Shown: piece by piece, positions 1-52,013 of the stretch | Numbering within the stretch: the stretch's first letter is position 1 | Layout of the letters: every line of letters starts with the position of its first letter | Virus record (IMG/VR): IMGVR_UViG_3300027792_000307 | Location: 866-64,865 of that record | Strand: one strand, 5' to 3' | Length of the DNA: 64,000 nucleotides | From: a virus | Lineage: Duplodnaviria; Heunggongvirae; Uroviricota; Caudoviricetes | Notes under the pieces: generated by a model | The model's input: the letters and a program-made list of their open reading frames with translations, nothing else | Databases searched by the model: none | Told to the model about the DNA's origin: nothing | Translations under genes and position numbers: made by a program

Positions 1-859
1 TGAATAAATGAAAAAAGCAAAAACATTTGACGAAATCGACATCGAATATTATTTAGAATATCTATAATCGATCATTTTTTATTTTTTTCTCTTACGGTGG
101 GACCCGCGTGCTAGACATTCTCACGCGATCGAGGCGAACAAGGCGAGCTAAACATTGTCATGCGTGCTAAACACTGACACGCGTGCTAGAGAGTGTCTAG
201 CGTGCTATGATGTGTCGGGTGGGTCCCACCCTGATAAAGAATAGCATGGCGATCCTTGCCATGCCACCTATTAGCGTGCTAACCTAACACATGCGTGACG
301 ATCTTTGTCATGTCACCTGCTACCCTGACATTTGCTGTCGTGCCATACATTGACATGTCAAGACCTATCGTGCCAACATGTAACCCGTCAGGATTTTGCA
401 CGTCAATGTATGCCATTGCCATGCTATCCCTTGACAAGCGAAGTGTTGCCATGAGATTATTTGACTTGCCAGACCTTCGCACGGTGATCTTTGGTTTATC
501 AGCCTTTTCAGTTCCAATAATATTTTCTGTCATAATATACCATAACGCGTGTTGGTTTATATACTTTGCGTGACAAGCATTAGCATGGATCAGGTTACGG
601 TGGGACCGCCGTGCTAGAGTCTGTCATTCAGGGTCTGGTCCCACCATGACAATGATTATCATGTGGGTCCCACCTGTGCTAATTGTTAGCATGCTACAGA
701 TCCCCATGACACCTGTTAGCACGCCTCCTGTTGGCACTATTATTATATTAAAATGCGTATAAATGGCTTAAAATAAAAATAGTTGTATAAAATGCCCTAT
801 ATATTATAGAATTTAAATAAAATTGCATAGATATACGCATAAAAAAATAAAAGAAAGAA

Positions 860-1096
860 TTAAAGGGAAATGTAGCCTTTTTGCTTTAAATCCCTGAAAT
901 TCTTATCAGCGACCATGTTACTGAGTGCCATGACGCTGTTTCTCTTATCGAGAATATTTATCTGTTGCTCGCGGGACAAGTCATCCCAATTTTTTCCATA
1001 TACCCGTAAGGATATATATTTCATGGTGTCGACTTTCGTCATAATATACTGTATGGCGAGGTAGGTATATATAGTTTGCGTGACACATATTAGCAC
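860..1096 (-). CDS. hypothetical small protein (only plausible minus-strand ORF; lies inside repeat region)
   Basis: 78-aa ORF with non-repetitive, protein-like composition (..KYISLRVYGKNWDDLSREQQINILDKRNSVMALSNMVADKNFRDLKQKG..); no homology recognised. Confidence 0.3.
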   Translation of the reverse strand: MLICVTQTIYTYLAIQYIMTKVDTMKYISLRVYGKNWDDLSREQQINILDKRNSVMALSNMVADKNFRDLKQKGYISL

Positions 1097-1670
1097 GGAT
1101 CGTTGGATATGGTGGGACCGGCGTGCTACTTGTTAGCAGGAGGCGGCCGTGCTAGAGATTGTCACGCGTGGGTCTGATATTGTGTAGCATGGGGGTCCCA
1201 CCCTTGACACATGTTAGCGTGCTACATGTTAACATTGATCAGGCCGAAACCTTTAAATACCCCTCGCTGATACGGGGTTGTTAAGGTAGTTACGTAACAA
1301 ACGGATCCCCGTGAGACTTGTTAGCACGGACCATGATAAGAATTATATTTATCGTGTTACTGATTGGCACGGATTATATATAAAAGGAATTATAAAAGGT
1401 TAAAAATAGAATAATTAGCACGGTTATTTGTTGCATATAATTAATATTTATGATTTACATAATAATAAATCAAAAAAAGATATACAAAAAGATATATGAA
1501 TTTCTGCCGTGCTAATGTTTGCCGTGATATATATAAAAGTGAAAAACCTCTCTCCGAGAACTCTCGAAGAACCGAAAAGTATTTAAACTCACAATGGTTT
1601 ATGGTCTTGTCGGTGTGTAAGACGCAAGACAAGTCTTGCATATCGTGAGTACAACACAGGAGAAAACATT

Positions 1671-2207
1671 ATGTCTATGAGCAAACAAGACAAAAAGGAT
1701 ATTGCTGATATGATTAGTGCTTCATTACAGGCACTCATAACAGCAAAAAAGCCAGAAACTCCAAGTAAAAAGGAGAAACCTAAACAACAGGAGAAAAACG
1801 CCTCCCCACCACATAAAAAGAGCGATATTCCTCAACTTTTAACAGATATGCCTCAAAAGGAGTGCATTGATTTATTCGGTAATCTGTTACAAAGTGAACC
1901 GTACAAAGCGAGTATATCGCCCTTTTACGCAAAATACAATATCGTATTAGATACCGAGAAGTACGAGCGTAAAACCCTCACATACGAGCAAAAACACAAC
2001 ATTATCTTAAAACAACTACAGGGAGCGAGTAAAAAGGAATTTACCCGTCAAAAAGCACGTCATTTAAAATTCCTCCGAGAAAAACTCGCCTCCCCTCCAG
2101 AAACCAACATATTCGGAAAGGTAATGAGCGACAAAAACCTCGAAAACTGGCAAAACGCCCTTACAAAAGAGGTACAACGGTGGGAAAATGAATCCTACAA
2201 AGAGTAA
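1671..2207 (+). CDS. lysine-rich basic hypothetical protein
   Basis: 178-aa ORF preceded by aggag-like SD (acaggagaaaacattATG); K/E-rich, no domain recognised. Confidence 0.55.
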   Translation: MSMSKQDKKDIADMISASLQALITAKKPETPSKKEKPKQQEKNASPPHKKSDIPQLLTDMPQKECIDLFGNLLQSEPYKASISPFYAKYNIVLDTEKYERKTLTYEQKHNIILKQLQGASKKEFTRQKARHLKFLREKLASPPETNIFGKVMSDKNLENWQNALTKEVQRWENESYKE

Positions 2208-4091
2208 AAACGACAAATTCGACGAAAAGGTACGGAATTACCTTAAACAGAAAGAGAAAGAGGGAGTAATTCCCTCTTCCTCTATAAAAGAACGAAGAGA
2301 ATTTCAAAATAGAGTATCAAAGATGGATTTTTCAGAAATCCAAAAACTCTATGATAATGAATAGCACGGGAAAGGTTCTCATGCTAACTACCCTGAAGTA
2401 CGCCCTCGATGGCGTTGGGCGTGATAAAGACTATCACGAATCCCTATGGGAGATGGGCTTGACCCATGTGTCAGTAAGTAGCACGAGAACCCCTGACATG
2501 CTATTCGTTGTCATTATTTTTTTTTTTGCTGGACCATGCTACATGTTAGCACGGATCATGGTAGAGTGGGTGGGACTCCAGTGCCAATTGTTAACATTTC
2601 GCCTGTTTAAGTATATAAACTTTGTGGTGGAAAAATTCCTCGAGAGGTTTCTCCTGTTGAGCCTGTTTTCTACTATATAAAGGTTTCTGTAGTTCTCCTT
2701 TATATACCTTTCGGTTGTTTTGAGGTTTCCTCCGAGAGAGCATTTTTTGGTGGGACCCCCGTGCTAGACCTTATCAGCCATGGCACGAGGCGGCGTGACA
2801 CATGTTAGCACGCTTCAAGGTAAGCGTTGTCATGGGGGTCCCACCTCCGATAGATTTATATACTCATAGCAGATACGGGGCTGTTACGGTAGTAGTTTAA
2901 CAGGAGTAACGGTGGGACTGCCGTGCTAAACAATATCTCGCTTTCCACACGTACATATATATGATGTTGCGAATAATAATATTATATGAATTAGTACGCC
3001 AACAGATAGCACGGGGCAGGGTAGTCCCACCATAAATGCCGTGCCACGCTATAACATGACACTATAAAAGAGTATTATAATGGTTGCTATTATATAGTTA
3101 AAACGGCATTATAATGGTGAAAATTGAAAGGCTCTATATAAATGCCCCTATATAGTAAAGAAAATGCCCCGATTATAATAGAAATTGAGAGTTTTTTTAA
3201 GGAGGGAATTATAATGGCGAGGTAATTGTAGTATATAGTAATACTTGGATGTATAGAATTGTACATTGTGGGATAAAAAATAACGTGTTTATATATATAC
3301 ACCTCAGTATTATAAATGTAATCACCTTATAATACAATATACCGTTCATAAAACAATTTGTTGTTTATTCTCATTATACAATACATAGATATTCTTTATA
3401 CGGTAATTGCCTCGGAAAAGGTTTTATCTATTGTTACATATAATAGCAGTTTATTGCGTGGAATGTAATAGCAACAGGAATAATACCACCCGAAACGTAG
3501 AGCCGTCAATTATTAATGGGCATATATAGAACTATATTCCTTGACCGAAAGGTTTATAAACCCTGTTCGGTTCTACCTATTGACGATGAAACTTTCGTCA
3601 GGAACGTGAGAAAGTATGAAATGCAATAATAACGGCAAGAACAAGCAATATAACGTAACAAACAAGCAACTATTAAAGGAATTAAAAGGCACAGGCAGGT
3701 GTATATATGCAAACTAAAGTACAATGTGATAAAGTATATTGTGGGCATAATATAGGGCAATTTTGCTCATTAAAAAAGATACATATTACAATCGGGGGTT
3801 GTGATATGTATAGGAATTGTAAAGGGTGTGATTAAAAATGAACAGAGCAGATTCTATAATGATAGGGGATAATCTATTATTAATATCCCAACAATTACAA
3901 ACAACCAATCAAGCATTAATAGAGATAATTAAAATAATGAGAGATGATTAAAATGCAATCAATAATAAAGAAAAAGGACTATATAATAGAGGCAGGTGAA
4001 ATAAAAAACAAGTTGTACAATTTAAATGTCGGAGAGCAACTTACAATACAAACACAATATACAACGAGAATATTTGAGAGAGTGATTTAAA

Positions 4092-4556: not shown

Positions 4557-5762
4557 ATGGTAGACATAAATAAATATACAAAAGCAGATGGAAACATTGA
4601 TTTCGACCTATTATATGAGGAAGATATGTCGGAGAAAACACAACAAGCAATTATAAAGATAGAGGCACAAAAGGAAATACCAACAGGAGTATTATCAAGT
4701 GCTAAAATGCTTGAAAGAGATATTAAATTAGCCGAGAGAAAAATGCCTTTTGTTGTATATAATGCCGAGCAGAAAGAGAGAATTAAAAAGGCAAAGAAAG
4801 AAAAGGCACGGGTTGAACAGGAATTTACTGAAATGGTATCCGAAAGGAAATCATTAGATGTAGCAGTAAAAGAAGATGATTTAATGGTAAATGAGATTAT
4901 TAATAAGAAAAACAAATCTCTTGAAACATTAAATCAGTCGGAAATTATGAATGTTGCCACAGTAAAGAACAAATATGGAAAGCAACGCAACATTATAATA
5001 GCAAATACCAAAATCGGAAGACATATAACTGAAAATGCTATATGGAATTTCGGTTGTATTGGCGATTATAATGTAGATAGTGTTCCACGTTCAAAGGTAA
5101 CTTGTAAAGGCACAGAGATTACTACTGTAAACACATACAATAAAGAAAATCGGAAGAATAAGCAATTAATTAGTAGAAGATTTTGCTCAAAAGTTGTAAT
5201 GTGTTGGGCAAAAATGGTTGATATGCAATATTCAAGTAAGGATATTGATAAACCAACAGCAATGTCTTTATGGGGTACACCAATAGAGTATCAGGGATTA
5301 GAAGGTGCTTGTTATCAGTACTTTATAAATGGAGAAACTATTGTTAAAATCCTCAAAGATATACTCTATATAATAAGAGGTAGACCTTACTCAAAGACCA
5401 ATTACAGTAACCAATTACAATGGGTTATTGAAAGGAGATTGAAATTAAGAAAAAGGAATCCCGACAAAATTACTAATGATATGAAAAACCGATTATACTA
5501 TACATATCAAAGTAATTCATTGGTATGGGGTTATCCTAAAGTTTCTCCTGAATATGTATTGGGATTAATAAGACACCTTGAAACGGGAGAATTTGGTAGA
5601 TTATTAAAGGAATATGATACACAAATAATGATACCTTTAATTAGTAATTTAAGAAGGTATCCATTAAAATGCACAGCATATCATAAACCTAAAGATAATG
5701 CCGACCATAAAAAACAAGCAGATGATTATGCAATAGACCAATATATATTTGAAAGGGATTAA
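4557..5762 (+). CDS. hypothetical 401-aa protein flanked on both sides by ~1 kb structured non-coding DNA
   Basis: Long uninterrupted ORF, good SD (aggtagataaaaATG); no recognisable motifs. Confidence 0.7.
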   Translation: MVDINKYTKADGNIDFDLLYEEDMSEKTQQAIIKIEAQKEIPTGVLSSAKMLERDIKLAERKMPFVVYNAEQKERIKKAKKEKARVEQEFTEMVSERKSLDVAVKEDDLMVNEIINKKNKSLETLNQSEIMNVATVKNKYGKQRNIIIANTKIGRHITENAIWNFGCIGDYNVDSVPRSKVTCKGTEITTVNTYNKENRKNKQLISRRFCSKVVMCWAKMVDMQYSSKDIDKPTAMSLWGTPIEYQGLEGACYQYFINGETIVKILKDILYIIRGRPYSKTNYSNQLQWVIERRLKLRKRNPDKITNDMKNRLYYTYQSNSLVWGYPKVSPEYVLGLIRHLETGEFGRLLKEYDTQIMIPLISNLRRYPLKCTAYHKPKDNADHKKQADDYAIDQYIFERD

Positions 5763-6811
5763 TAATCTCTTTCTTCTTTTTTTTTTACTTTTAGCCGTGC
5801 TACTTGCTAACACTTCTACTAATTACTTTTATATTTAAATGAGGCGATTCCAGATTCTACGTACAATATAATATATTAATAAGTTAGTACAAATTAGTAC
5901 AGTAGTTAGTACATAATACCATTGGAAAGAGTTATAATAATTGCCTCTATTATAAGAGTAAAAGGCAACTTTTTGGTATAAAATTGCAGTATATTATGCT
6001 GTATTACACCACTATATTCCTGATTTTTCTTCGAGAGACGAAAGGTTTAAGTACTCGATGATTTCGTTCTCGGAGAGATTTCCGAAAGACTTATAAACTT
6101 TTCGGTTGCGAAATCCGTACGGGTTGAGAACAAGTTTTCTGTTTGTTTGTTATTTTTGATATGGTTACTTTAGTATCCATATTATAACTTATACATACAT
6201 ACTTGAGTCGCATTAAAATTACCTTACCCAATCATTCGCACCTTTTAGATATACTTATACCTAAAAGGGGTTGATTATAAAGGCAATTAGGTTATTCCTG
6301 TATTGGACAGGTTTTTAATTAATCTAATGAGGGTTATAATCAATTCGGGAAAATTAGTAGATATTAATCCCATTAGGTTTTGGTAATACCTATTTCAACG
6401 CAAAATCTACACAGTAATACAGTATAACAAGACTTCGGAAAGGATTATAATTACTTTATTGGGTTGTTATCCAACCCTCTAATCCTTTTCTACATAATTT
6501 AAAAATGCTTACCCAATTGTAAAATTGGGTGTTAAATCAACAGAAGGTGAAGGAAAAAAGGGAATAGGGTTGCGTTTATCCTATGGTATAGGTTAGGTTA
6601 CATTACCATTAATGGTTCGATTCCATTAAAAATCCTCGAGATTTTATCCTATTCCTAAATATTATTTAAATTCAGAAGCATAATATGAGCATAAAATCAT
6701 TTTTAGAGCAAAAAGCACAAGATATAGGCAAAATTGAAAGGAAAATTGATATATATAGGCACAAAATAATTGATTGCCAAAAAGAGATAGAAGAATTAAG
6801 GAAGGATTAAA
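5763..6811. other. AT-rich structured non-coding region with repeated GGAAAG(R)-N-TTATAA (BRE/TATA-like) motifs and multiple hairpins
   Basis: ggaaagagttataataa (5927), cgaaaggtttaagtac (6041), ccgaaagacttataaacttttcgg hairpin (6086), ggttgattataaaggc (6270), gggttataatc (6329), ggaaaggattataatt (6434), ggaatagg..cctattcc 8-bp inverted repeat (6561/6645) enclosing a tRNA-like T-arm AATGGTTCGATTCCATT (6610-6626). Confidence 0.6.
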
Positions 6812-7024
6812 ATGAGCAATATAAAAGTAAAAATAGATAATGAAATATACAAGAATACAAGGCAGGTTGCATTAACAAATACAGAAAGGATATTAGACGA
6901 ATTAGCATTATTAATGAGAGAATTAACAGGAAATACATTAGAAATAAATAATGCAAGTAAAGAGAAAGTTGCATTAATAATTCAAGGAATATCTCATACA
7001 ATAGATTATATACAATGTGCATAG
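6812..7024 (+). CDS. hypothetical protein
   Basis: 70-aa ORF, ggaggATTAAAATG start context. Confidence 0.5.
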   Translation: MSNIKVKIDNEIYKNTRQVALTNTERILDELALLMRELTGNTLEINNASKEKVALIIQGISHTIDYIQCA

Positions 7025-7034
7025 AGGTATTAAA

Positions 7035-7217
7035 ATGAAAACAATTAGATACAATAAAATAGAACGGATATTAAGTGCCCATTTGATTGTATATAATGGC
7101 AGGGTACATATGGTAAAGGAAAATGTAGAATTAAAACCACGATTGGTTACATTAATAGATGGAGGATTATCTGAAGATGATTATGCTGAATTAAGGCAAG
7201 AGGCATATATATTGTAA
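7035..7217 (+). CDS. hypothetical protein
   Basis: ORF with gaggtATTAAAATG start context directly after the previous stop. Confidence 0.5.
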   Translation: MKTIRYNKIERILSAHLIVYNGRVHMVKENVELKPRLVTLIDGGLSEDDYAELRQEAYIL

Positions 7218-7356
7218 AGGAGGTAATTATGATAGAAATACAAACCGACAAACCTTTTGTATTACTAACGGAATTATCCGACAAACCAAAATTGGCGATG
7301 ATAGAAGAAACCAAAGATACAAAGGGTAATTCCAGATTTAAATTGAGGTTTATATA

Positions 7357-7614
7357 ATGACTCGTTTAAATGATAAAATTAATAAAGACATTAAATTGGT
7401 TAAAAATTACTTTAAAAATAGATATAAAAATGACTATATAAATAAACAATACACCATATGCGTATTATTATGGGCAGATAAAGATTATTGTATAAGATTA
7501 AGGCACGGAAATGCAATTAAAGATATAGAATATCATAATTCTGAAAAAACTTTAATAGAATACAATACTAAACATCATATAGATAGTATAACTAAATTGA
7601 GGAACAGAAAATGA
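7357..7614 (+). CDS. hypothetical protein
   Basis: 85-aa ORF; ATGA overlap with next gene. Confidence 0.5.
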   Translation: MTRLNDKINKDIKLVKNYFKNRYKNDYINKQYTICVLLWADKDYCIRLRHGNAIKDIEYHNSEKTLIEYNTKHHIDSITKLRNRK

Positions 7615-7841
7615 AATTAAGAAAGGCAGATTATTGTTTAATGAAAGGAACGTATTTACGCATTAAATCAGCAAGTTTGGATGATATAATTAGAGTTACA
7701 AGCACAAAATCAAGAACGATTAGAGGTAGAGTTTTAAAATCTCTTGTTTCAGAAGATGTTGGTAAACTTTATAGATATATAGTAGAAGAATTAGATATTA
7801 ATGTAATTAAAAAGAAAGATTTGATGTTGGAATTATTATAA
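7611..7841 (+). CDS. hypothetical protein
   Basis: 76-aa ORF starting in ATGA overlap. Confidence 0.5.
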   Translation: MKLRKADYCLMKGTYLRIKSASLDDIIRVTSTKSRTIRGRVLKSLVSEDVGKLYRYIVEELDINVIKKKDLMLELL

Positions 7842-7972
7842 AGGAGAATTAAAATGGAAGAAATAAACGAAGATGATATATTTGTTTTCCACGCAAGAAC
7901 AGGAAATAAAGTAATGCTGATGAAAATTAGTTTCTGTCAAGTATCCAGAGATTTTAAAATGGAGAAAATGTA

Positions 7973-8092
7973 ATGCAAACTTCCTGCCCGATTTGTAAAA
8001 AACCATTAAAGGTGTGGTATTCAGGTTGTGGAGGCAAAAAGTTTATGGGTTGCTCGGATATTAAATGCCAATTTAAAGAGGAAATTGAATAA
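7973..8092 (+). CDS. small zinc-ribbon protein (39 aa)
   Basis: CPICKK..(16)..GC..C spacing; ATG overlaps previous stop (aTGtaATGc). Confidence 0.35.
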   Translation: MQTSCPICKKPLKVWYSGCGGKKFMGCSDIKCQFKEEIE

Positions 8093-8139
8093 AATTTAGG
8101 GTTACTATATGATTAGTAACAGATATGGAGGTATATATT

Positions 8140-8337
8140 ATGGCAACAAAGAAAGAAGAAACCCAAAAACCAAAGGCAGTAGCACACACAATGACCATCG
8201 AAAACATTATGGCGTATCCTTATACAAAGGAAGGAGATGCCGATGGATTCATTCGCAGGAGATTAATTGGTCAAGTTGTGTTTGAAGGCAAAATCCTGCA
8301 GATTAATGGTTTCGCAACACAGCGAAAAGGTCAGTAA
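8140..8337 (+). CDS. hypothetical protein
   Basis: ORF with ggaggtatatattATG SD context. Confidence 0.5.
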   Translation: MATKKEETQKPKAVAHTMTIENIMAYPYTKEGDADGFIRRRLIGQVVFEGKILQINGFATQRKGQ

Positions 8338-23480: not shown

Positions 23481-24155
23481 ATGGAAAAGAAACAAAAAAC
23501 AATAGTTGCGAGTACTTCCATAGTGGCAGCAGCCATAGTGGTTCTCGCAGCATTGGGAGGGCAGGTGTTTGGCACAGACACAACTGTGAGTGTTATCGTG
23601 CCTACAGGAACATATAGAATTGGAGATACAATTACTGTATCAATTCAATGTTCTCCGACAAGACCAGTAAAAGCATGGGAATTGAATGTAAATTTCAATA
23701 AGAATGTTTTGAATGCCAATGCGGTGTTTGAAGGAAATTTCTTTGTTGGTAAAACAACATTCTTTAATGCGGGAACTATACAGAATTCCAATGGAAAAAT
23801 TATCAACATATATGATTTGATAATTGGACCCGGAAATGTAACAACCCAAGGAAATTTAATTACAATATCTTTTACTGCGGTTGGGTATGGAACTAGTGCC
23901 GTAGAAATATACAATGTTGGACTTACAAATGAGACAATGTATATTCCAATTAGTATAGTTAATTCCACAACAATAGTATATTCTCCATATGATATGAATG
24001 CGGATGGTGTGGTTGATATGCTAGATTTAGTTGATGTTGCTGGGCACTATGGAGAAACTGGAACATCTGGTTGGATTATGCAGGATATAAACAAAGATGG
24101 GAAGATTTCGGTTATGGACTTGGTGTTAATATCTACTCATTGGGGTAGTTATTAA
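23481..24155 (+). CDS. secreted/membrane-anchored cohesin-like domain + type-I dockerin protein
   Basis: N-terminal hydrophobic segment; cohesin-like start TVSVIVPTGTYRIGDTITVSIQC; two textbook dockerin Ca-binding repeats DMNADGVVDMLDLVDV and DINKDGKISVMDLVLI at the C-terminus. Confidence 0.65.
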   Translation: MEKKQKTIVASTSIVAAAIVVLAALGGQVFGTDTTVSVIVPTGTYRIGDTITVSIQCSPTRPVKAWELNVNFNKNVLNANAVFEGNFFVGKTTFFNAGTIQNSNGKIINIYDLIIGPGNVTTQGNLITISFTAVGYGTSAVEIYNVGLTNETMYIPISIVNSTTIVYSPYDMNADGVVDMLDLVDVAGHYGETGTSGWIMQDINKDGKISVMDLVLISTHWGSY

Positions 24156-50335: not shown

Positions 50336-50872
50336 ATGATATGGATCTCAGCATTAAGTGATGTTGATTTTTGTGAATATAAATTTTATCATAAATATGT
50401 ATTGAAAACCCCAGAAACTGAGACAAACTCAATGAAAAGTGGAACTATTAATCATTATAATCTAAGTAAGAATCCGAATGGAGATAACGAAGTTTGGATT
50501 AAATATAAGGATGTGCGTGGAAAAATAGACCATATAGGTTATAGTGGAAATACATTAAGAGTTGTTGAATATAAGAGTAATAAAAATGGAGAAGTGTATG
50601 AAAGCCAAAAAATACAAGTAGCAGCCTATTGTTATTTATTGAAAAAGGAACTTCCTCTTCTATTTGAAAAATACGAAAAAGTTCAATGCGTAATTAGAAG
50701 GATTGGGGATTTAAAAGTTCTTTATGAAAGTGATTATACTCCTCTAAAAGAGATAGATATAGAAAAAAAGTTAGAAAAAGTCAATTATATATTAACTGGA
50801 GCCGAAATACCAGAAAAGGCTACAAACAAAAATAAATGTGCGAAATGCGGGTATAAGGATGTGTGTTGGTAA
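50336..50872 (+). CDS. Cas4/RecB-like PD-(D/E)xK nuclease with Cys cluster
   Basis: N-terminal Cys (DFCEYKF), core D..VVEYKS..QKIQVAAY, C-terminal CAKCGYKDVC (Cx2Cx5C) typical of Cas4 Fe-S nucleases. Confidence 0.6.
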   Translation: MIWISALSDVDFCEYKFYHKYVLKTPETETNSMKSGTINHYNLSKNPNGDNEVWIKYKDVRGKIDHIGYSGNTLRVVEYKSNKNGEVYESQKIQVAAYCYLLKKELPLLFEKYEKVQCVIRRIGDLKVLYESDYTPLKEIDIEKKLEKVNYILTGAEIPEKATNKNKCAKCGYKDVCW

Positions 50873-50873
50873 T

Positions 50874-52013
50874 ATGCCTAAAAAATTAACAATTGAAGAA
50901 ATGCAGAGAATTGCTGAATCTAGAGGTGGAAAATGTCTTTCTGAAAAATATATTAATAATAGGACTAAATTAAAGTGGCAGTGTGAGAAAGGCCACATTT
51001 GGGAAGCAGCTCCTAGAAGAAGTTGGTGTCCTTATTGTAGTGAGAATAAAAATGAGGATTTTAATATGGAATTTGATGATATGTCTAAACAAATAATTGA
51101 AGGATGTTTATTAGGTGATGGATGTATTGACGGTTATATTAAAAGAAAAAACCGTACATTTAGAATTTGTTGTATTAAAAAAGAATATATAGAATATCTA
51201 AAAACTAATTTTGAAAAAAATGGAATCAAAGTAGGTAAATTAATCACATATAAAATAAAAGATAGAGATTTTGGCGATTATATATCAAAATGTAAAGATC
51301 AATATAGTATAAGTTTATATGTCTATAAAGAAATAAATAAATTCAGGGATATGTGGTATAAAAATAAAAAGAAAATTATTCCCTCGGATTTAAAATTAAC
51401 ATCAATTAATTTATTACATTGGTTTATTGGTGATGGTAGTTTTACATTTAGAAAAAATAAAAAAGGATGTTGGGCTCACATACAACTATCAACAAATTGT
51501 TTTTCTTTATCGGATATAAATAATTTATTAAATAAATTAAAAGTAGATTTAAATCTTAATTTTAATAAATATGAAGTTAATCCAGGACAATACAAATTAT
51601 CTATTAGTAATTACAAAGAAATATGTAAATTTTTTGATATTATAAAAGATTGCCCAAAAGAATTTGTAAATGATTATGGATATAAATGGCCTACAGAAGA
51701 TATATTTAATTATTTAAGAGAGGCACAACTTCCCAAAAAACAACTTATATTTTATATATGCGATATTTGTAAAGAGATGATATCTGTAAGAAGTGAAACA
51801 GATTTAAAGCGTCATGAGAAAGGAATTTGTCAGAAATGTAACTGTAATATTATGAGAGAAAAAACTATAGATAAACAAAAAGAAAAAAATATAGAAAGAG
51901 ATTCTTTATATTATAGTCTGTATGAATTTGGATATAGTAATAAAGAAATAAAAAATATATTAGATATTAAAAATGATTCTTATGAAGGTTGGAAATATTA
52001 TAGAGGATTATAA
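50874..52013 (+). CDS. LAGLIDADG homing endonuclease with N-terminal zinc-ribbon-like domain
   Basis: LLGDGCIDGY and HWFIGDGSF (two LAGLIDADG motifs); N-terminal C..(n)..CPYC. Confidence 0.65.
   Translation: MPKKLTIEEMQRIAESRGGKCLSEKYINNRTKLKWQCEKGHIWEAAPRRSWCPYCSENKNEDFNMEFDDMSKQIIEGCLLGDGCIDGYIKRKNRTFRICCIKKEYIEYLKTNFEKNGIKVGKLITYKIKDRDFGDYISKCKDQYSISLYVYKEINKFRDMWYKNKKKIIPSDLKLTSINLLHWFIGDGSFTFRKNKKGCWAHIQLSTNCFSLSDINNLLNKLKVDLNLNFNKYEVNPGQYKLSISNYKEICKFFDIIKDCPKEFVNDYGYKWPTEDIFNYLREAQLPKKQLIFYICDICKEMISVRSETDLKRHEKGICQKCNCNIMREKTIDKQKEKNIERDSLYYSLYEFGYSNKEIKNILDIKNDSYEGWKYYRGL

What the first reader, a model, noticed from the sequence alone, without database searches (positions are those of the whole stretch)
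1..3100. 3-kb GC-elevated non-coding region built from inverted-repeat units of GGTGGGACC and CGTGCTAR motifs
In an otherwise AT-rich, gene-dense sequence, the first 3.1 kb has almost no convincing ORFs and visibly higher GC. Two short motifs recur on both strands far above chance. GGTGGGACC-NN(N)-GTGCTAG pairs with a downstream GGGTCCCACC ~90-130 nt away at about 96/226, 599/634+668, 1109/1197, 2749/2840 and 2912/3029, giving hairpin-capable units. Isolated CGTGCTAA/TTAGCACG copies occur roughly every 50-150 bp. A second shared element, GATACGGGG(Y)TGTTA(M)GGTAGT, appears at ~1269 and ~2873. This looks like an origin of replication, a packaging/terminal region, or an array of binding sites for an element-encoded DNA-binding protein. 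MITE-like insertions are also possible.
Basis: seen in the sequence. Interest (0 to 1): 0.7.

Follow-up and report, generated by a model that had tools for sequence, protein, structure and literature searches.

The report
Repeated promoter-operator cassettes in archaeal virus
The repeat-rich first 3 kb is real: it is half of a roughly 6.5-kb control region of an uncultivated, probably archaeal, tailed virus, where promoters, protein-binding-type boxes and inverted repeats are reused as cassettes around small, fast-changing genes, which resembles something already described in T4-type phages and one haloarchaeal virus.

Summary
All 12 GGTGGGAC copies in the 64-kb window lie in 96-3031, where shuffles predict 0.04. 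CGTGCTA occurs 21 times in 1-3100 against 0.27 expected. GC is 40.5% against 32.6% in the rest.

The feature continues about 3.4 kb upstream of the window. It sits between leftward packaging genes (TerL, portal, Alba) and a long rightward gene array.

It has three parts:
- An A box with 15-nt periodicity (CAYG every 7-8 nt). It appears as 19-bp dyads, CGTGACA-N5-TAGCACG, and as tandem arrays.
- A B half-site, GGTGGGACC. Inverted pairs 40-125 nt apart bracket A boxes.
- Archaeal-type BRE/TATA promoters. An A box often abuts the BRE, and an ATG follows the TATA by 23-25 nt.

Related metagenomic viruses keep box A but replace box B with GTGGGACT, GGTTGGACC or CAGCGGGAT. They also differ by whole cassettes. 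One relative carries a hybrid unit at a deletion junction.

My best reading is a hyperplastic, probably early-gene control region made of promoter/operator/inverted-repeat cassettes. This parallels PeSLs of T4-type phages and the TATA-plus-inverted-repeat motif of haloarchaeal virus HGTV-1. A replication origin is not excluded. MITEs, known RNA families and assembly artefact are rejected. No binding protein was identified.

The parts
96..230 (.). Unit 1. B half-site GGTGGGACC (96-104, +) and its inverted partner (222-230) bracket A boxes. Includes a 19-nt-period tandem array GCGTGCTAAACACTGTCAA x3.4 (143-207) and a tight palindrome GGGTGGG-T-CCCACCC (217-231).
   Evidence: TRF L001 8473-8537 = window 143-207; fold z -4.5 on +, -3.4 on -
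279..533 (-). 84-aa ORF whose ATG lies 23 nt downstream of the TATA box at 556-563 (leaderless distance). It is an ORFan, so whether it codes is unproven. This cassette is absent from relative L075.
556..587 (-). Minus-strand archaeal-type promoter. TATA is 556-563 (TATATAAA on the minus strand) and BRE 564-570 (CGCAAAG). A 19-bp A box, CGTGACAAGCATTAGCATG (569-587), abuts and overlaps the BRE.
599..723 (.). Unit 2. B (599-607, +) with two inverted partners (637-645 and 666-674). A boxes at 610-626, 645-663 and 705-723.
725..859 (-). AT-rich spacer with T-runs on the minus strand, giving an oligo-T terminator-like stretch after the ORF at 860-1042. Also carries TATA-like AAAATGCCC motifs.
   Evidence: families D10, D14; AT-rich 768-830
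860..1042 (-). Small ORF of about 60 aa from the ATG at 1040-1042, which lies 23 nt downstream of the TATA at 1066-1073. It shares the conserved start context GTATATTATGAC with the other cassettes.
1066..1097 (-). Minus-strand promoter. TATA 1066-1073 and BRE 1074-1080 (CGCAAAC), with the abutting A box CGTGACACATATTAGCACG at 1079-1097. It is a paralogue of 551-591 (83% identity over 41 nt).
   Evidence: (D16)
1111..1235 (.). Unit 3. B (1111-1119) and inverted partner (1194-1202) bracket A boxes (1122, 1148-1166, 1185). Further A half-sites follow at 1210-1231. The unit is 77-90% conserved in relatives L075 and L076.
1244..1290 (+). Plus-strand promoter CCGAAACCTTTAAATA (BRE/TATA 1244-1259), followed 9 nt later by the conserved 'C box' GATACGGGGTTGTTAAGGTAGT (1269-1290). 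The box spans the expected transcription start.
   Evidence: (D12); no covariation for a hairpin
1309..1530 (.). Scattered A boxes (1309-1328, 1353-1371, 1416, 1508-1529) around an AT-rich block (1410-1470) that is nearly invariant in L075 and L076. The number of A boxes to its left differs between relatives.
1572..2364 (+). Promoter-like CCGAAAAG-TATTTAAA (1572-1587), then the conserved 178-aa gene (1671-2207) and an overlapping 58-aa ORF (2188-2364). The 178-aa protein is all-helical and of unknown function.
2342..2576 (.). 50-nt imperfect inverted repeat (2342-2391 / 2474-2523) built of A half-sites. Followed by a T13 run (2517-2530), A box 2535-2553 and a solitary B half-site GGTGGGACT (2569-2576).
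   Evidence: (I1)
2699..2713 (-). Minus-strand BRE/TATA (CGAAAGGTATATAAA on the minus strand). No clear ORF lies downstream.
2749..2845 (.). Unit 4. B (2749-2757) and inverted partner (2837-2845) with A boxes inside, including the full dyad 2794-2812. It has the strongest hairpin potential and is conserved in L076 (78%).
   Evidence: (z -5.7)
2847..2893 (+). Plus-strand promoter CCGATAGATTTATATA (TATA 2855-2862) followed 9 nt later by the C box GATACGGGGCTGTTACGGTAGT (2872-2893). It points into unit 5.
   Evidence: (D12)
2911..3058 (.). Unit 5. GGTGGGACTGCCGTGCTA (2911-2928) pairs with TAGCACGGGGCAGGGTAGTCCCACC (3007-3031) around an AT-rich centre. A box CGTGCCACGCTATAACATG follows at 3040-3058. 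This is the right-hand end of the A/B motif field.
   Evidence: I9; z -5.7
3060..3240 (.). Adjacent AT-rich block with its own repeats (ATTATAATGG x4; AAATGCCCC followed by TATA-like sequence). It is conserved in L043 and L076. It separates the motif field from the first promoter of the long plus-strand gene array, CGAAAGGTTTATAAA at 3546-3560.
   Evidence: (D14)

Best explanation
Window 1-3100 is the right half of a roughly 6.5-kb hyperplastic control region of an uncultivated tailed virus of about 140-155 kb whose host is most likely an archaeon. The whole region spans L001 about 5000 to window about 3100.

The region is assembled from reused regulatory cassettes. Read along the minus strand, a typical cassette runs: oligo-T stretch, then a 75-135-bp unit bounded by inverted B half-sites (GGTGGGACC) and filled with A boxes, then one 19-bp A dyad (CRTGMYA-N5-TRKCAYG) abutting the BRE, then BRE/TATA, then a start codon about 24 nt later, then a small and poorly conserved ORF. 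A second promoter class points rightward and carries the conserved GATACGGGGYTGTTAAGG box over its start site.

Inferred mechanism. A and B are operators for two sequence-specific DNA-binding proteins. The A binder is common to the whole virus group and may be host-encoded. The B binder differs between viruses. These proteins bind cooperatively: A in 15-bp register along the arrays, B as dimers on tight palindromes or across the units. In this way they switch the whole battery of cassette promoters on or off together, probably as an early-gene class.

Because the cassettes share 20-40-bp identical stretches, recombination between them adds, deletes and swaps genes. That recombination explains why the region is so variable.

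What is shown: the motifs, their phasing, their conservation and the cassette turnover. What is inferred: protein binding, promoter activity, timing of expression and the archaeal host.
For: Localisation and excess.
- 109 of the 127 CRTG[ACT][CT]A half-sites in 72.3 kb lie in the 6.5-kb region.
- In 1-3100 there are 63 half-sites against 4.9 expected.
- All 12 B copies lie in the region.

Binding-site geometry.
- Same-strand spacing peaks at 15 and 30 nt, convergent spacing at 5/12/20/27 and divergent spacing at 3/10/18/25.
- TRF finds a 15-nt array of 8.1 copies and a 19-nt array of 3.4 copies.
- There are 16 full 19-bp dyads.

Promoter linkage.
- Eight minus-strand BRE/TATA matches (GCAAAGTATATAAA type) lie in the region, against very few in the 60-kb gene array.
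- An ATG follows at 23-25 nt, in the shared context GTATATTATGAC.
- Across this virus and nine related loci, 13 of 42 promoters have an A half-site starting 20-32 nt upstream of TATA (mode 24 nt). Random positions in the same regions give 7.6%.
- The only promoters in that list that can be tied to conserved genes (window 3546, L006 8040, L043 3163) carry no A half-site.

Conservation pattern.
- The syntenic region of a virus with 62% TerL identity has the same A arrays and GTGGGAC pairs.
- Other relatives keep A but use GGTTGGACC palindromes 15-20 nt upstream of each TATA (L009) or CAGCGGGAT/ATCCCGCTG pairs (L043, L064, L077).
- Units and promoters are 77-90% conserved between close relatives, while the number of A boxes and the genes between them change.

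Cassette turnover.
- L075 lacks window 150-716, which is one ORF plus promoter. It carries a unit that is unit 1 on its left and unit 2 on its right.
- L076 replaces about 4.4 kb between conserved flanks.
- The 84-aa ORF is an ORFan.

Archaeal context.
- Alba domain above the Pfam threshold.
- XPF/ERCC4-HhH, a RadA/Rad51-like ATPase, family B polymerase and a weak archaeo-eukaryotic primase match.
- Leaderless first genes combined with GGAGG motifs before internal genes (reading).

Precedent.
- PeSL cassettes in T4-type phages (PMC2839356, PMC4122927).
- The TATA-plus-inverted-repeat motif before small ORFs of the 143.8-kb haloarchaeal virus HGTV-1 (PMC3950731). I re-found it as 21 copies of a 68-nt motif in NC_021328, 128-143.8 kb.
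Against: - All promoters are consensus matches. No transcript data were available.
- The small minus-strand ORFs have no homologues and may not be genes.
- Coding density here is much lower than in PeSL regions or in HGTV-1.
- Several A arrays have no promoter next to them, such as L001 6081-6310 with about 17 units. Something beyond promoter control is therefore likely.
- B half-sites 75-125 bp apart are an odd geometry for a simple dimer. Equally strong hairpins on both strands would also fit an RNA or cruciform role.
- An origin function would produce much of the same anatomy.
Confidence: 0.55

Rival explanations
1. Replication origin. The A arrays are iterons for an initiator, viral or host. 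The neighbouring AT-rich blocks are the unwinding elements. The inverted B sites orient the loading of the replication machinery. The promoters are incidental, or they activate the origin by transcription. This reading can coexist with the main explanation.
For: - Tandem direct repeats with a 15-nt period (8.1 copies) and a 19-nt period (3.4 copies).
- Six AT-rich blocks of at most 15% GC are interleaved with the arrays. One of them (1410-1470) is nearly invariant in relatives.
- The region sits where gene orientation diverges, at the flat minimum of cumulative G-C (minimum at window -890).
- Replication genes lie directly to the right: PolB, a primase-like protein, RadA-like and nucleases.
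Against: - No Rep, Orc1/Cdc6 or MCM gene was found in the 72 kb examined.
- The skew minimum is what the switch in coding strand alone would give.
- The 15-bp register is not in helical phase, unlike the classical iterons of about 20-22 bp (from memory).
- The boxes are spread over 6.5 kb in more than 10 clusters rather than forming one compact origin.
- Many boxes are fixed relative to BRE/TATA.
- The RadA-like protein, Cas4-like nuclease and XPF would allow recombination-dependent replication without a fixed origin (inference).
Confidence: 0.2
2. Transcribed structured RNAs. The B...B' units are expressed, for example from the rightward GATACGGGG promoters. They then act as long hairpin RNAs, such as small regulatory RNAs, processing or stability elements, or hairpin parts of promoter-terminator cassettes as in PeSLs.
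For: - All five units fold far better than shuffles, with z from -3.0 to -5.7 on the plus strand.
- The promoter at 2847-2862 points into unit 5, with no run of five or more T until about 3194.
- Arms extend beyond B into the adjoining A half-site, giving 15-18 bp stems.
- In PeSLs the stem-loop is a functional terminator (PMC2839356).
Against: - The minus strand folds nearly as well (z -2.9 to -4.4), as any DNA palindrome would.
- Only the ends of the units are conserved. The interiors differ in length (76-135 nt) and consist of the same A boxes that also occur outside any hairpin.
- There is no Rfam match, even at E up to 1.
- The one candidate small hairpin, after GATACGGGG, shows no compensatory change in seven sequences.
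- The C-to-T and G-to-A change in the stem between this virus and L076 affects every B copy in L076. It is therefore a change of the box consensus, not a pair-specific compensation.
- Units 2, 3 and 4 lie upstream of the predicted minus-strand promoters, and no plus-strand promoter was found reading into them (reading).
Confidence: 0.1
3. Titration or segregation array. The more than 100 A half-sites act in bulk. They either soak up a host transcription factor or serve as a centromere-like, episome-tethering array. Analogues are operator/centromere heptad arrays of plasmids and the EBNA1-binding repeats of EBV oriP.
For: - There are far more sites than promoters, and some arrays have no promoter at all (L001 6081-6310 and 5148-5262).
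- Half-sites are contiguous at 7-8-bp spacing in both orientations.
- The A motif is constant across viruses that differ in everything else in the region.
- Two tandem A-type units lie between the TATA box and the start codon of an ADH-synthase-like (aroA') gene in four Methanotrichaceae genomes and four high-GC metagenome contigs.
Against: - The genome-wide pattern scan was expected to give about four chance hits (my estimate) and gave two independent loci, so the Methanotrichaceae match alone is not statistically significant.
- The virus has 32% GC against 53-62% for those genomes, which argues against them being the host.
- No ParA-, ParB- or RHH-type gene was found.
- Other hits to the same pattern were eukaryote-like satellites (L051, L055, L059). 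The motif can therefore arise as simple repeat DNA.
Confidence: 0.08
4. Packaging signal or genome terminus. On this reading the repeats are terminase-binding sites or terminal repeats, because the terminase genes lie just to the left.
For: - TerL and two small upstream genes end 0.4-2.6 kb to the left of the first arrays.
- An HNH-like gene, often a partner of terminase in cos phages (from memory), lies inside the region at L001 7231-7653.
Against: - No contig ends in the region. The JGI contig ends at window 4838. The 137.8-kb relative has the region at about 16.6-18.6 kb from a contig end (my arithmetic from the contig range), and other assemblies read through it.
- About 100 sites over 6.5 kb is far beyond the size of known pac or cos sites (from memory).
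- A better pac/cos candidate is the separate conserved 400-nt non-coding stretch directly upstream of the terminase-side genes (L001 4580-5000).
- The boxes are phased to promoters.
Confidence: 0.04
5. Miniature inverted-repeat transposable elements (MITEs) that have inserted repeatedly into a non-coding region.
For: The units are 75-135 bp long with terminal inverted repeats of about 28 bp that are 79-86% complementary (I2-I5).
Against: - There are no target-site duplications at any of the five units (flanks read).
- No copy lies anywhere else in 72 kb.
- The interiors are not homologous to one another.
- Units sit at fixed positions relative to promoters and are syntenic in relatives.
- No transposase gene was found.
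Confidence: 0.03

Closest known systems
PeSL (promoter-early stem-loop) regulatory cassettes in hyperplastic regions of T4-type phages (Arbiol et al. 2010, PMC2839356; Comeau et al. 2014, PMC4122927)
   Same: - Short regulatory cassettes are repeated many times in a genome segment full of small, non-conserved genes.
- Each cassette combines a promoter with an inverted repeat.
- Differences between close relatives are insertions, deletions or replacements of whole gene-plus-cassette modules, with junctions inside the cassettes. Here that is the hybrid unit of L075.
   Different: - The promoter here is archaeal BRE/TATA, not sigma-70 type.
- The inverted repeat is a long-range pair 40-125 nt apart that encloses other boxes, not a compact terminator hairpin. 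Termination signals here look like oligo-T runs.
- There are two or three separate box families and promoter-less tandem arrays.
- Gene density is much lower.
- There is no sequence similarity.
- Terminator activity and mini-circles were not testable.
Conserved 'TATA box-like region plus inverted repeat' motif preceding small ORFs in haloarchaeal myovirus HGTV-1 (described in PMC3950731, citing Sencilo et al. 2013)
   Same: - An archaeal tailed virus of similar size (143.8 kb) with a block of small genes next to the terminase module.
- Each of those genes is preceded by a repeated TATA-containing motif with an inverted repeat. I re-found 21 copies of a 68-nt motif in NC_021328, 128-143.8 kb.
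- The gene repertoires overlap: Band 7, LAGLIDADG, HNH, and a Mu-like portal next to TerL.
   Different: - The HGTV-1 motif is one compact, well-conserved unit (TTTATATACCATAA..CTCCTCGTGCCACGAGGAG..CTATAAAAAGG) with an 8-bp stem and 3-nt loop, one per roughly 130-nt intergenic gap.
- Here the elements are modular (A, B and C boxes), variable in number and spacing, and include arrays without genes.
- There is no sequence similarity.
- TerL is only distantly related. HGTV-1 is not among the listed TerL matches.
Contiguous heptad operator/centromere arrays bound by ribbon-helix-helix proteins, e.g. omega of inc18 plasmids or ParR-parC (from memory, not checked in the library)
   Same: Short half-sites follow each other every 7-8 bp in direct and inverted orientation. 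The runs extend up to about 150-230 bp, and some overlap promoters.
   Different: - No RHH or partition gene was detected.
- The unit here is 15 bp with two CAYG cores.
- Protein binding is untested.
Iteron-type replication origins of phages and plasmids, e.g. lambda ori or P1 oriR (from memory)
   Same: Tandem repeats of a protein-binding-type sequence lie next to AT-rich DNA at a divergence point of transcription.
   Different: - No initiator gene lies nearby.
- The repeat period is 15 bp.
- The sites are dispersed over 6.5 kb in many clusters.
- The sites are tightly coupled to promoters.

Membership tests
PeSL-type regulatory cassettes (T4-type phages; HGTV-1 motif) | A repeated motif occupies intergenic spaces of a hyperplastic region rich in small, non-conserved genes | tested here: met
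   - Motifs are confined to the 6.5-kb region.
- The small ORFs have no homologues.
- Gene content between conserved flanks differs in L075, L076, L043 and L006.
PeSL-type regulatory cassettes (T4-type phages; HGTV-1 motif) | The cassette contains a promoter | tested here: met
   This is met at the sequence level only. BRE/TATA consensus is followed by an ATG 23-25 nt downstream, with a conserved start context. Promoter activity was not testable.
PeSL-type regulatory cassettes (T4-type phages; HGTV-1 motif) | The cassette contains a stem-loop that acts as a transcription terminator | tested here: inconclusive
   An inverted repeat with significant folding is present. However, its arms are 40-125 nt apart and it is not followed by a T-run. 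Oligo-T stretches lie elsewhere in the cassette. Termination could not be measured.
PeSL-type regulatory cassettes (T4-type phages; HGTV-1 motif) | Indel or replacement breakpoints between close relatives fall inside the cassettes | tested here: met
   L075 lacks window 150-716 and has a hybrid unit made of unit 1's left part and unit 2's right part.
PeSL-type regulatory cassettes (T4-type phages; HGTV-1 motif) | Sequence similarity to the described motifs | tested here: not met
   The HGTV-1 motif retrieved shares only the generic TATA element. The A and B boxes are absent from it.
Iteron-type replication origin | Tandem direct repeats of an initiator-binding sequence | tested here: met
   A 15-nt array of 8.1 copies, a second of 2.8 copies, and a 19-nt array of 3.4 copies. 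The 15-nt period is atypical.
Iteron-type replication origin | An adjacent AT-rich unwinding element | tested here: met
   Six blocks of at most 15% GC are interleaved with the arrays. The block at 1410-1470 is conserved.
Iteron-type replication origin | An initiator gene (Rep, Orc1/Cdc6 or similar) in or next to the element | tested here: not met
   No such domain was found in any protein examined. The 178-aa protein has no informative fold match.
Iteron-type replication origin | Replication starts here (strand-composition switch or mapped intermediates) | tested here: inconclusive
   The cumulative G-C minimum lies in the region. It coincides with the switch in coding strand, which would produce it by itself.
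MITE | Target-site duplications flank each copy | tested here: not met
   The flanks of the five units are tac/ctg, tac/atg (tac/tgt for the outer partner), tat/ctt, ttt/tcc and aac/ata, so there is no duplication.
MITE | Copies are homologous along their length and dispersed in the genome | tested here: not met
   Only the ends align. All copies lie within the 6.5-kb region.
Known RNA families (Rfam 15) or a structured ncRNA | A match to a covariance model, or covariation supporting a structure | tested here: not met
   - No hit at gathering thresholds in the 64-kb window.
- Only chance-level hits at E up to 1 in the region.
- 0 of 12 pairs show compensatory change in the GATACGGGG element.
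pac/cos packaging site or genome terminus | Genome ends or terminase cleavage map to the element | not testable with these tools
   No read data were available. Indirectly, contigs from several assemblies read through the region without ending there.
Heptad-type operator/centromere arrays (omega, ParR) | Contiguous short half-sites in direct and inverted orientation, bound cooperatively by a small dimeric protein encoded nearby | tested here: inconclusive
   The site geometry is met. No RHH or Par-like protein was detected. Binding is untested.

The most novel reading that the evidence does not exclude
The A box may be the operator of a host transcription factor rather than a viral one. On this reading the virus carries more than 100 copies, partly at its own cassette promoters and partly as promoter-less 15-bp tandem arrays. 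It would use them both to plug its early genes into a host regulatory circuit and to titrate that factor away from host promoters.

The lead is a pair of tandem A-type units, CATGTTAGCATG-N3-CATGTTAGCA. They sit between the TATA box and the start codon of an aromatic-amino-acid biosynthesis gene (ADH-synthase-like) in Methanotrichaceae. A palindromic version lies at the end of a phenylacetate-CoA-ligase-like gene. The second box (B) would be the virus-specific layer that differs between related viruses.
Probability: 0.12. Interest if true: 0.8.

Novelty: new variant of a known kind. Interest (0 to 1): 0.5.

Why it matters
Almost nothing is known about how tailed viruses of non-extremophilic archaea regulate their genes or generate new gene content. 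This region gives a concrete, testable map. It defines two or three operator-like boxes, with one invariant and one virus-specific across a group of related wetland and sediment viruses. It predicts promoters with fixed box-to-BRE geometry. It also gives direct comparative evidence that the repeated cassettes are the places where genes are gained and lost.

This extends the 'mobile regulatory cassette' idea beyond T4-type phages and one haloarchaeal virus. The new case is a different and more elaborate layout in a new virus group.

The boxes can be used as probes in three ways: to fish out the binding proteins, to recognise related viruses in metagenomes, and possibly to assign a host if the invariant box proves to be a host operator.

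On its own it is an incremental finding rather than a new kind of system.

Tried and rejected
- Rfam and tRNA scans of the window and a permissive Rfam scan of the region found nothing.
- DNA similarity search of 1-3300 against 50,697 phage records gave no match.
- A search for the B+A composite in IMG/VR returned one unrelated high-GC contig. An exact 14-mer search returned 25 loci, of which only one was a true relative.
- The metagenome and genome pattern scans also pulled in eukaryote-like satellites (L051, L055, L059) and a Lysinibacillus palindrome. I discarded these after reading them.
- Bulk Pfam scan of 140 small proteins for DNA-binding domains found none.
- The hairpin after GATACGGGG shows no covariation.
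- Host assignment failed. TerL gives only 26-28% matches to assorted phages, one of them a Methanobacteriales virus, and PolB gives only distant hits. The Methanotrichaceae link rests on the motif alone and conflicts with GC content.
- The MITE, CRISPR-like and collapsed-assembly readings were rejected.

Full report

Yes. GGTGGGAC occurs 12 times on both strands, and every copy lies between 96 and 3031. Expectation is 0.45 for the whole window and 0.04 for dinucleotide shuffles of 1-3100 alone. CGTGCTA occurs 21 times in 1-3100 against 0.27 expected. GC is 40.5% there against 32.6% in the rest.

The GATACGGGG element is at 1269 and 2872. Two assemblies from other sequencing runs reproduce 1431-3019 and 1670-2797 at 99.9-100% identity, so this is not a collapsed repeat.

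**2. Context.**

An exact look-up of the 178-aa protein found a JGI contig that overlaps the window without a mismatch and extends 8.3 kb to its left. To the left lie minus-strand genes for a portal protein, an Alba-domain protein (27.5 bits, above the Pfam cut-off), TerL and small proteins.

To the right the window is 92.7% coding on the plus strand, mostly with small genes. These include family B polymerase, a RadA/Rad51-like ATPase, XPF/ERCC4-HhH, a Cas4-like nuclease, ribonucleotide reductase, a LAGLIDADG endonuclease and a Band 7 protein.

The motifs do not begin at window position 1. They fill L001 about 5000-8330 as well, interrupted by an HNH-like gene and a 227-aa gene. The finding is therefore the right half of a roughly 6.5-kb region that sits exactly where the two gene orientations diverge.

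**3. Anatomy of the short repeat (box A).**

The degenerate half-site CRTG[ACT][CT]A occurs 127 times in 72.3 kb, and 109 of those copies are inside the region. Spacings are sharply non-random. Same-strand pairs peak at 15 and 30 nt, convergent pairs at 5, 12, 20 and 27 nt, and divergent pairs at 3, 10, 18 and 25 nt. This corresponds to a CAYG core every 7-8 nt in a 15-nt unit, nnACATGTTAGCAYG.

The unit appears in three forms:
- tandem arrays, such as L001 6181-6302 with 8.1 copies;
- a 19-nt-period array at window 143-207;
- 16 complete 19-bp dyads, CRTGMYA-N5-TRKCAYG, 12 of them in the window.

**4. Box B and the units.**

GGTGGGACC is a half-site. It forms a tight palindrome once (217-231) and otherwise occurs as inverted pairs 40-125 nt apart, with an A half-site directly inside each arm (I2-I5).

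The pairs give hairpin-capable units with z-scores from -3 to -5.7. The complementary strand folds almost as well, which is what DNA-level symmetry predicts. The interiors of the units are not homologous to one another.

**5. Promoters and small genes.**

The recurring TTTATATACTTTGCG reads on the minus strand as CGCAAAG-TATATAAA. This is an archaeal-type BRE followed by a TATA box. There are eight such sites on the minus strand of the region, against a handful in the 60 kb of genes.

Where an ORF follows, its ATG lies 23-25 nt after the TATA box, in a shared context GTATATTATGAC. That is the distance expected for leaderless archaeal mRNAs (established knowledge). Internal genes of the long operons have GGAGG motifs (reading).

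A 19-bp A dyad abuts or overlaps the BRE at 569-587 and 1079-1097, and at several sites upstream of the window and in relatives. A B half-site lies 11-13 nt further out. Over this virus and nine related loci, 13 of 42 promoters have an A half-site starting 20-32 nt upstream of TATA, with a mode of 24 nt. Random positions in the same regions give 7.6%. The only promoters in that list that can be tied to conserved genes (window 3546, L006 8040, L043 3163) carry no A half-site.

There are three copies in this genome, and it is conserved in L049, L075, L076 and L077. It is conserved as sequence, not as structure: 0 of 12 predicted pairs covary.

**6. Relatives.**

TerL found 11 related viral contigs. 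A motif-pattern scan of metagenomes and look-ups of homologues of the 178-aa protein added more.

- A 137.8-kb contig with 62% TerL identity has, at the syntenic place, the same A arrays and GTGGGAC pairs.
- Another relative, with 61% TerL identity, has GGTTGGACC-N3-GGTCCAACC palindromes 15-20 nt upstream of the TATA box of each small gene, plus one array and one A box.
- A third group has CAGCGGGAT/ATCCCGCTG pairs in the same layout.

Box A is therefore invariant across the group while box B changes. More distant relatives (46-48% TerL identity) have no such arrays within 10 kb upstream of TerL.

**7. Turnover.**

Against close relatives, whose 178-aa proteins are 78-83% identical, unit 3 and the promoter/C-box block are 77-90% conserved. 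The number of A boxes next to them expands and contracts, and an AT-rich block (1410-1470) is nearly invariant.

L075 lacks window 150-716, which is one ORF plus its promoter. It carries a unit whose left part matches unit 1 and whose right part matches unit 2. This is the product expected from recombination between two units. L076 has other genes in place of about 4.4 kb between conserved flanks.

The small minus-strand ORFs have no homologues.

**8. Interpretation.**

The best-supported picture is a hyperplastic control region made of reused promoter/operator/inverted-repeat cassettes.

- What is shown: the motifs, their geometry, their coupling to promoter-like sites, their conservation and the cassette-level recombination.
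- What is inferred: that A and B are protein-binding sites, that the promoters fire, that the class is early, and that the host is an archaeon.

The inferred proteins would be a group-wide binder, possibly from the host, for A and a virus-specific one for B.

I could not name a binder. No DNA-binding domain was detected among 140 small proteins. The conserved 178-aa protein is an all-helical protein with no informative structural match.

**9. Comparison with known systems.**

The closest described systems are two:
- the PeSL cassettes of T4-type phages (PMC2839356, PMC4122927);
- the 'TATA box-like region and inverted repeat' motif in front of most small ORFs of one arm of haloarchaeal myovirus HGTV-1 (PMC3950731).

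I re-found the HGTV-1 motif as 21 copies of a 68-nt sequence next to the terminase module.

The logic is the same as here. The implementation differs in four ways: modular boxes, long-range inverted pairs, promoter-less tandem arrays and low coding density. There is no sequence similarity. I therefore call this a new variant of a known kind.

**10. Rivals.**

An origin of replication would explain the tandem arrays, the AT-rich blocks and the location. It lacks an initiator gene and is confounded by gene orientation. It may coexist with the promoter function.

Structured RNAs, a packaging site and MITEs are each contradicted or unsupported, as set out in the rival and membership sections.

**11. 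A lead worth following.**

The only archaeal genomes hit by a two-unit A pattern were four Methanotrichaceae. In them the two units lie between the TATA box and the start of an ADH-synthase-like gene. Four high-GC metagenome contigs show the same locus. A fifth has a palindromic version after a phenylacetate-CoA-ligase-like gene.

The number of independent hits is no more than chance would give in 596 Gb, and the GC contents differ by more than 20 points. I treat this as a hypothesis that A is a host operator, not as a result.

Noticed in passing
window 3601-64000: GC-containing 4-bp palindromes are strongly avoided in the coding part. Observed against expected: GCGC 0/17.7, GATC 25/146, CATG 40/136, CGCG 4/13.8, GGCC 20/53, CTAG 38/99, GTAC 48/109. 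AT-only palindromes are at expectation. This looks like restriction avoidance. Notably, CATG is the core of the A box and is enriched in the control region (60 in the 6.5-kb region against 48 in the remaining 65 kb).
   Followed up: partly
L001 4580-5000 (outside the window, 3.3-3.7 kb to its left); L006 8400-8760; L009 3330-3560: A conserved non-coding stretch of about 400 nt lies directly upstream of the terminase-side genes. It has a BRE/TATA (CACCGATACCTTTATATAC) and a repeated TTTCCGTTATA motif, and it is shared by three viruses with only about 60% TerL identity. It is a better pac/cos or ncRNA candidate than the A/B field.
   Followed up: no
window 1410-1470: An AT-rich block, ATTAGCACGGTTATTTGTTGCATATAATTAATATTTATGATTTACATAATAATAAA, is nearly invariant in two relatives whose flanks carry large indels. 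It could be an unwinding element or a promoter.
   Followed up: no
window 3060-3240; L043 4450-4570; L076 3023-3102: A separate repeat family: ATTATAATGG x4, and AAATGCCCC followed by TATA-like sequence. It lies between the last A/B unit and the first promoter of the long gene array and is conserved in relatives.
   Followed up: no
L068 1391-1415, L070 3017-3041, L071 270-294, L073 1108-1132 (Methanotrichaceae genomes); L045, L054, L057, L058, L066 (metagenome): Two tandem 15-nt A-type units lie between the TATA box and the start codon of an ADH-synthase-like gene. That gene is divergent from a 74-aa ORF that I read, without a family search, as resembling PC4/p15-type small DNA-binding proteins. 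A palindromic version lies after a PaaK-like gene. This is an operator-like element in host-type genomes.
   Followed up: partly
window 3300-64000: There are 133 plus-strand ORFs of 200 aa or fewer in one orientation, with 92.7% coding density. Only 16 Pfam families are hit among 140 small proteins: FeoA, glutaredoxin, MazG-like, an NrdR-type zinc ribbon, GP88, Cas4-like and others. The proteome is almost entirely uncharacterised.
   Followed up: partly
window 23481-24155: A 224-aa protein has both a cohesin and a dockerin domain. This is unusual for a virus and may be an adhesion or scaffolding protein.
   Followed up: no
window 50838-52013: A LAGLIDADG homing-endonuclease ORF overlaps the 3' end of the Cas4-like nuclease gene (50336-50872). 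It lies in the lowest-GC kilobase of the window (22.8% for 51001-52000), which suggests a recent mobile insertion.
   Followed up: no
L055 2600-3930, L059 6430-7060, L051 233-470: Eukaryote-like contigs carry satellites with a unit of about 15 nt built on CATGTTAGCATG- or CATGTTAACATGCCC-type sequence. They show that this sequence type also arises as plain satellite DNA and can contaminate motif-based searches.
   Followed up: yes
L003 (Logan SRR28346263), equal to window 1670-2797: A short independent contig starts one base before the ATG of the 178-aa gene and runs through the T13 tract at 2517-2530. If that run is RNA-derived, the contig would outline a transcript. The nature of the run is unknown to me.
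   Followed up: no
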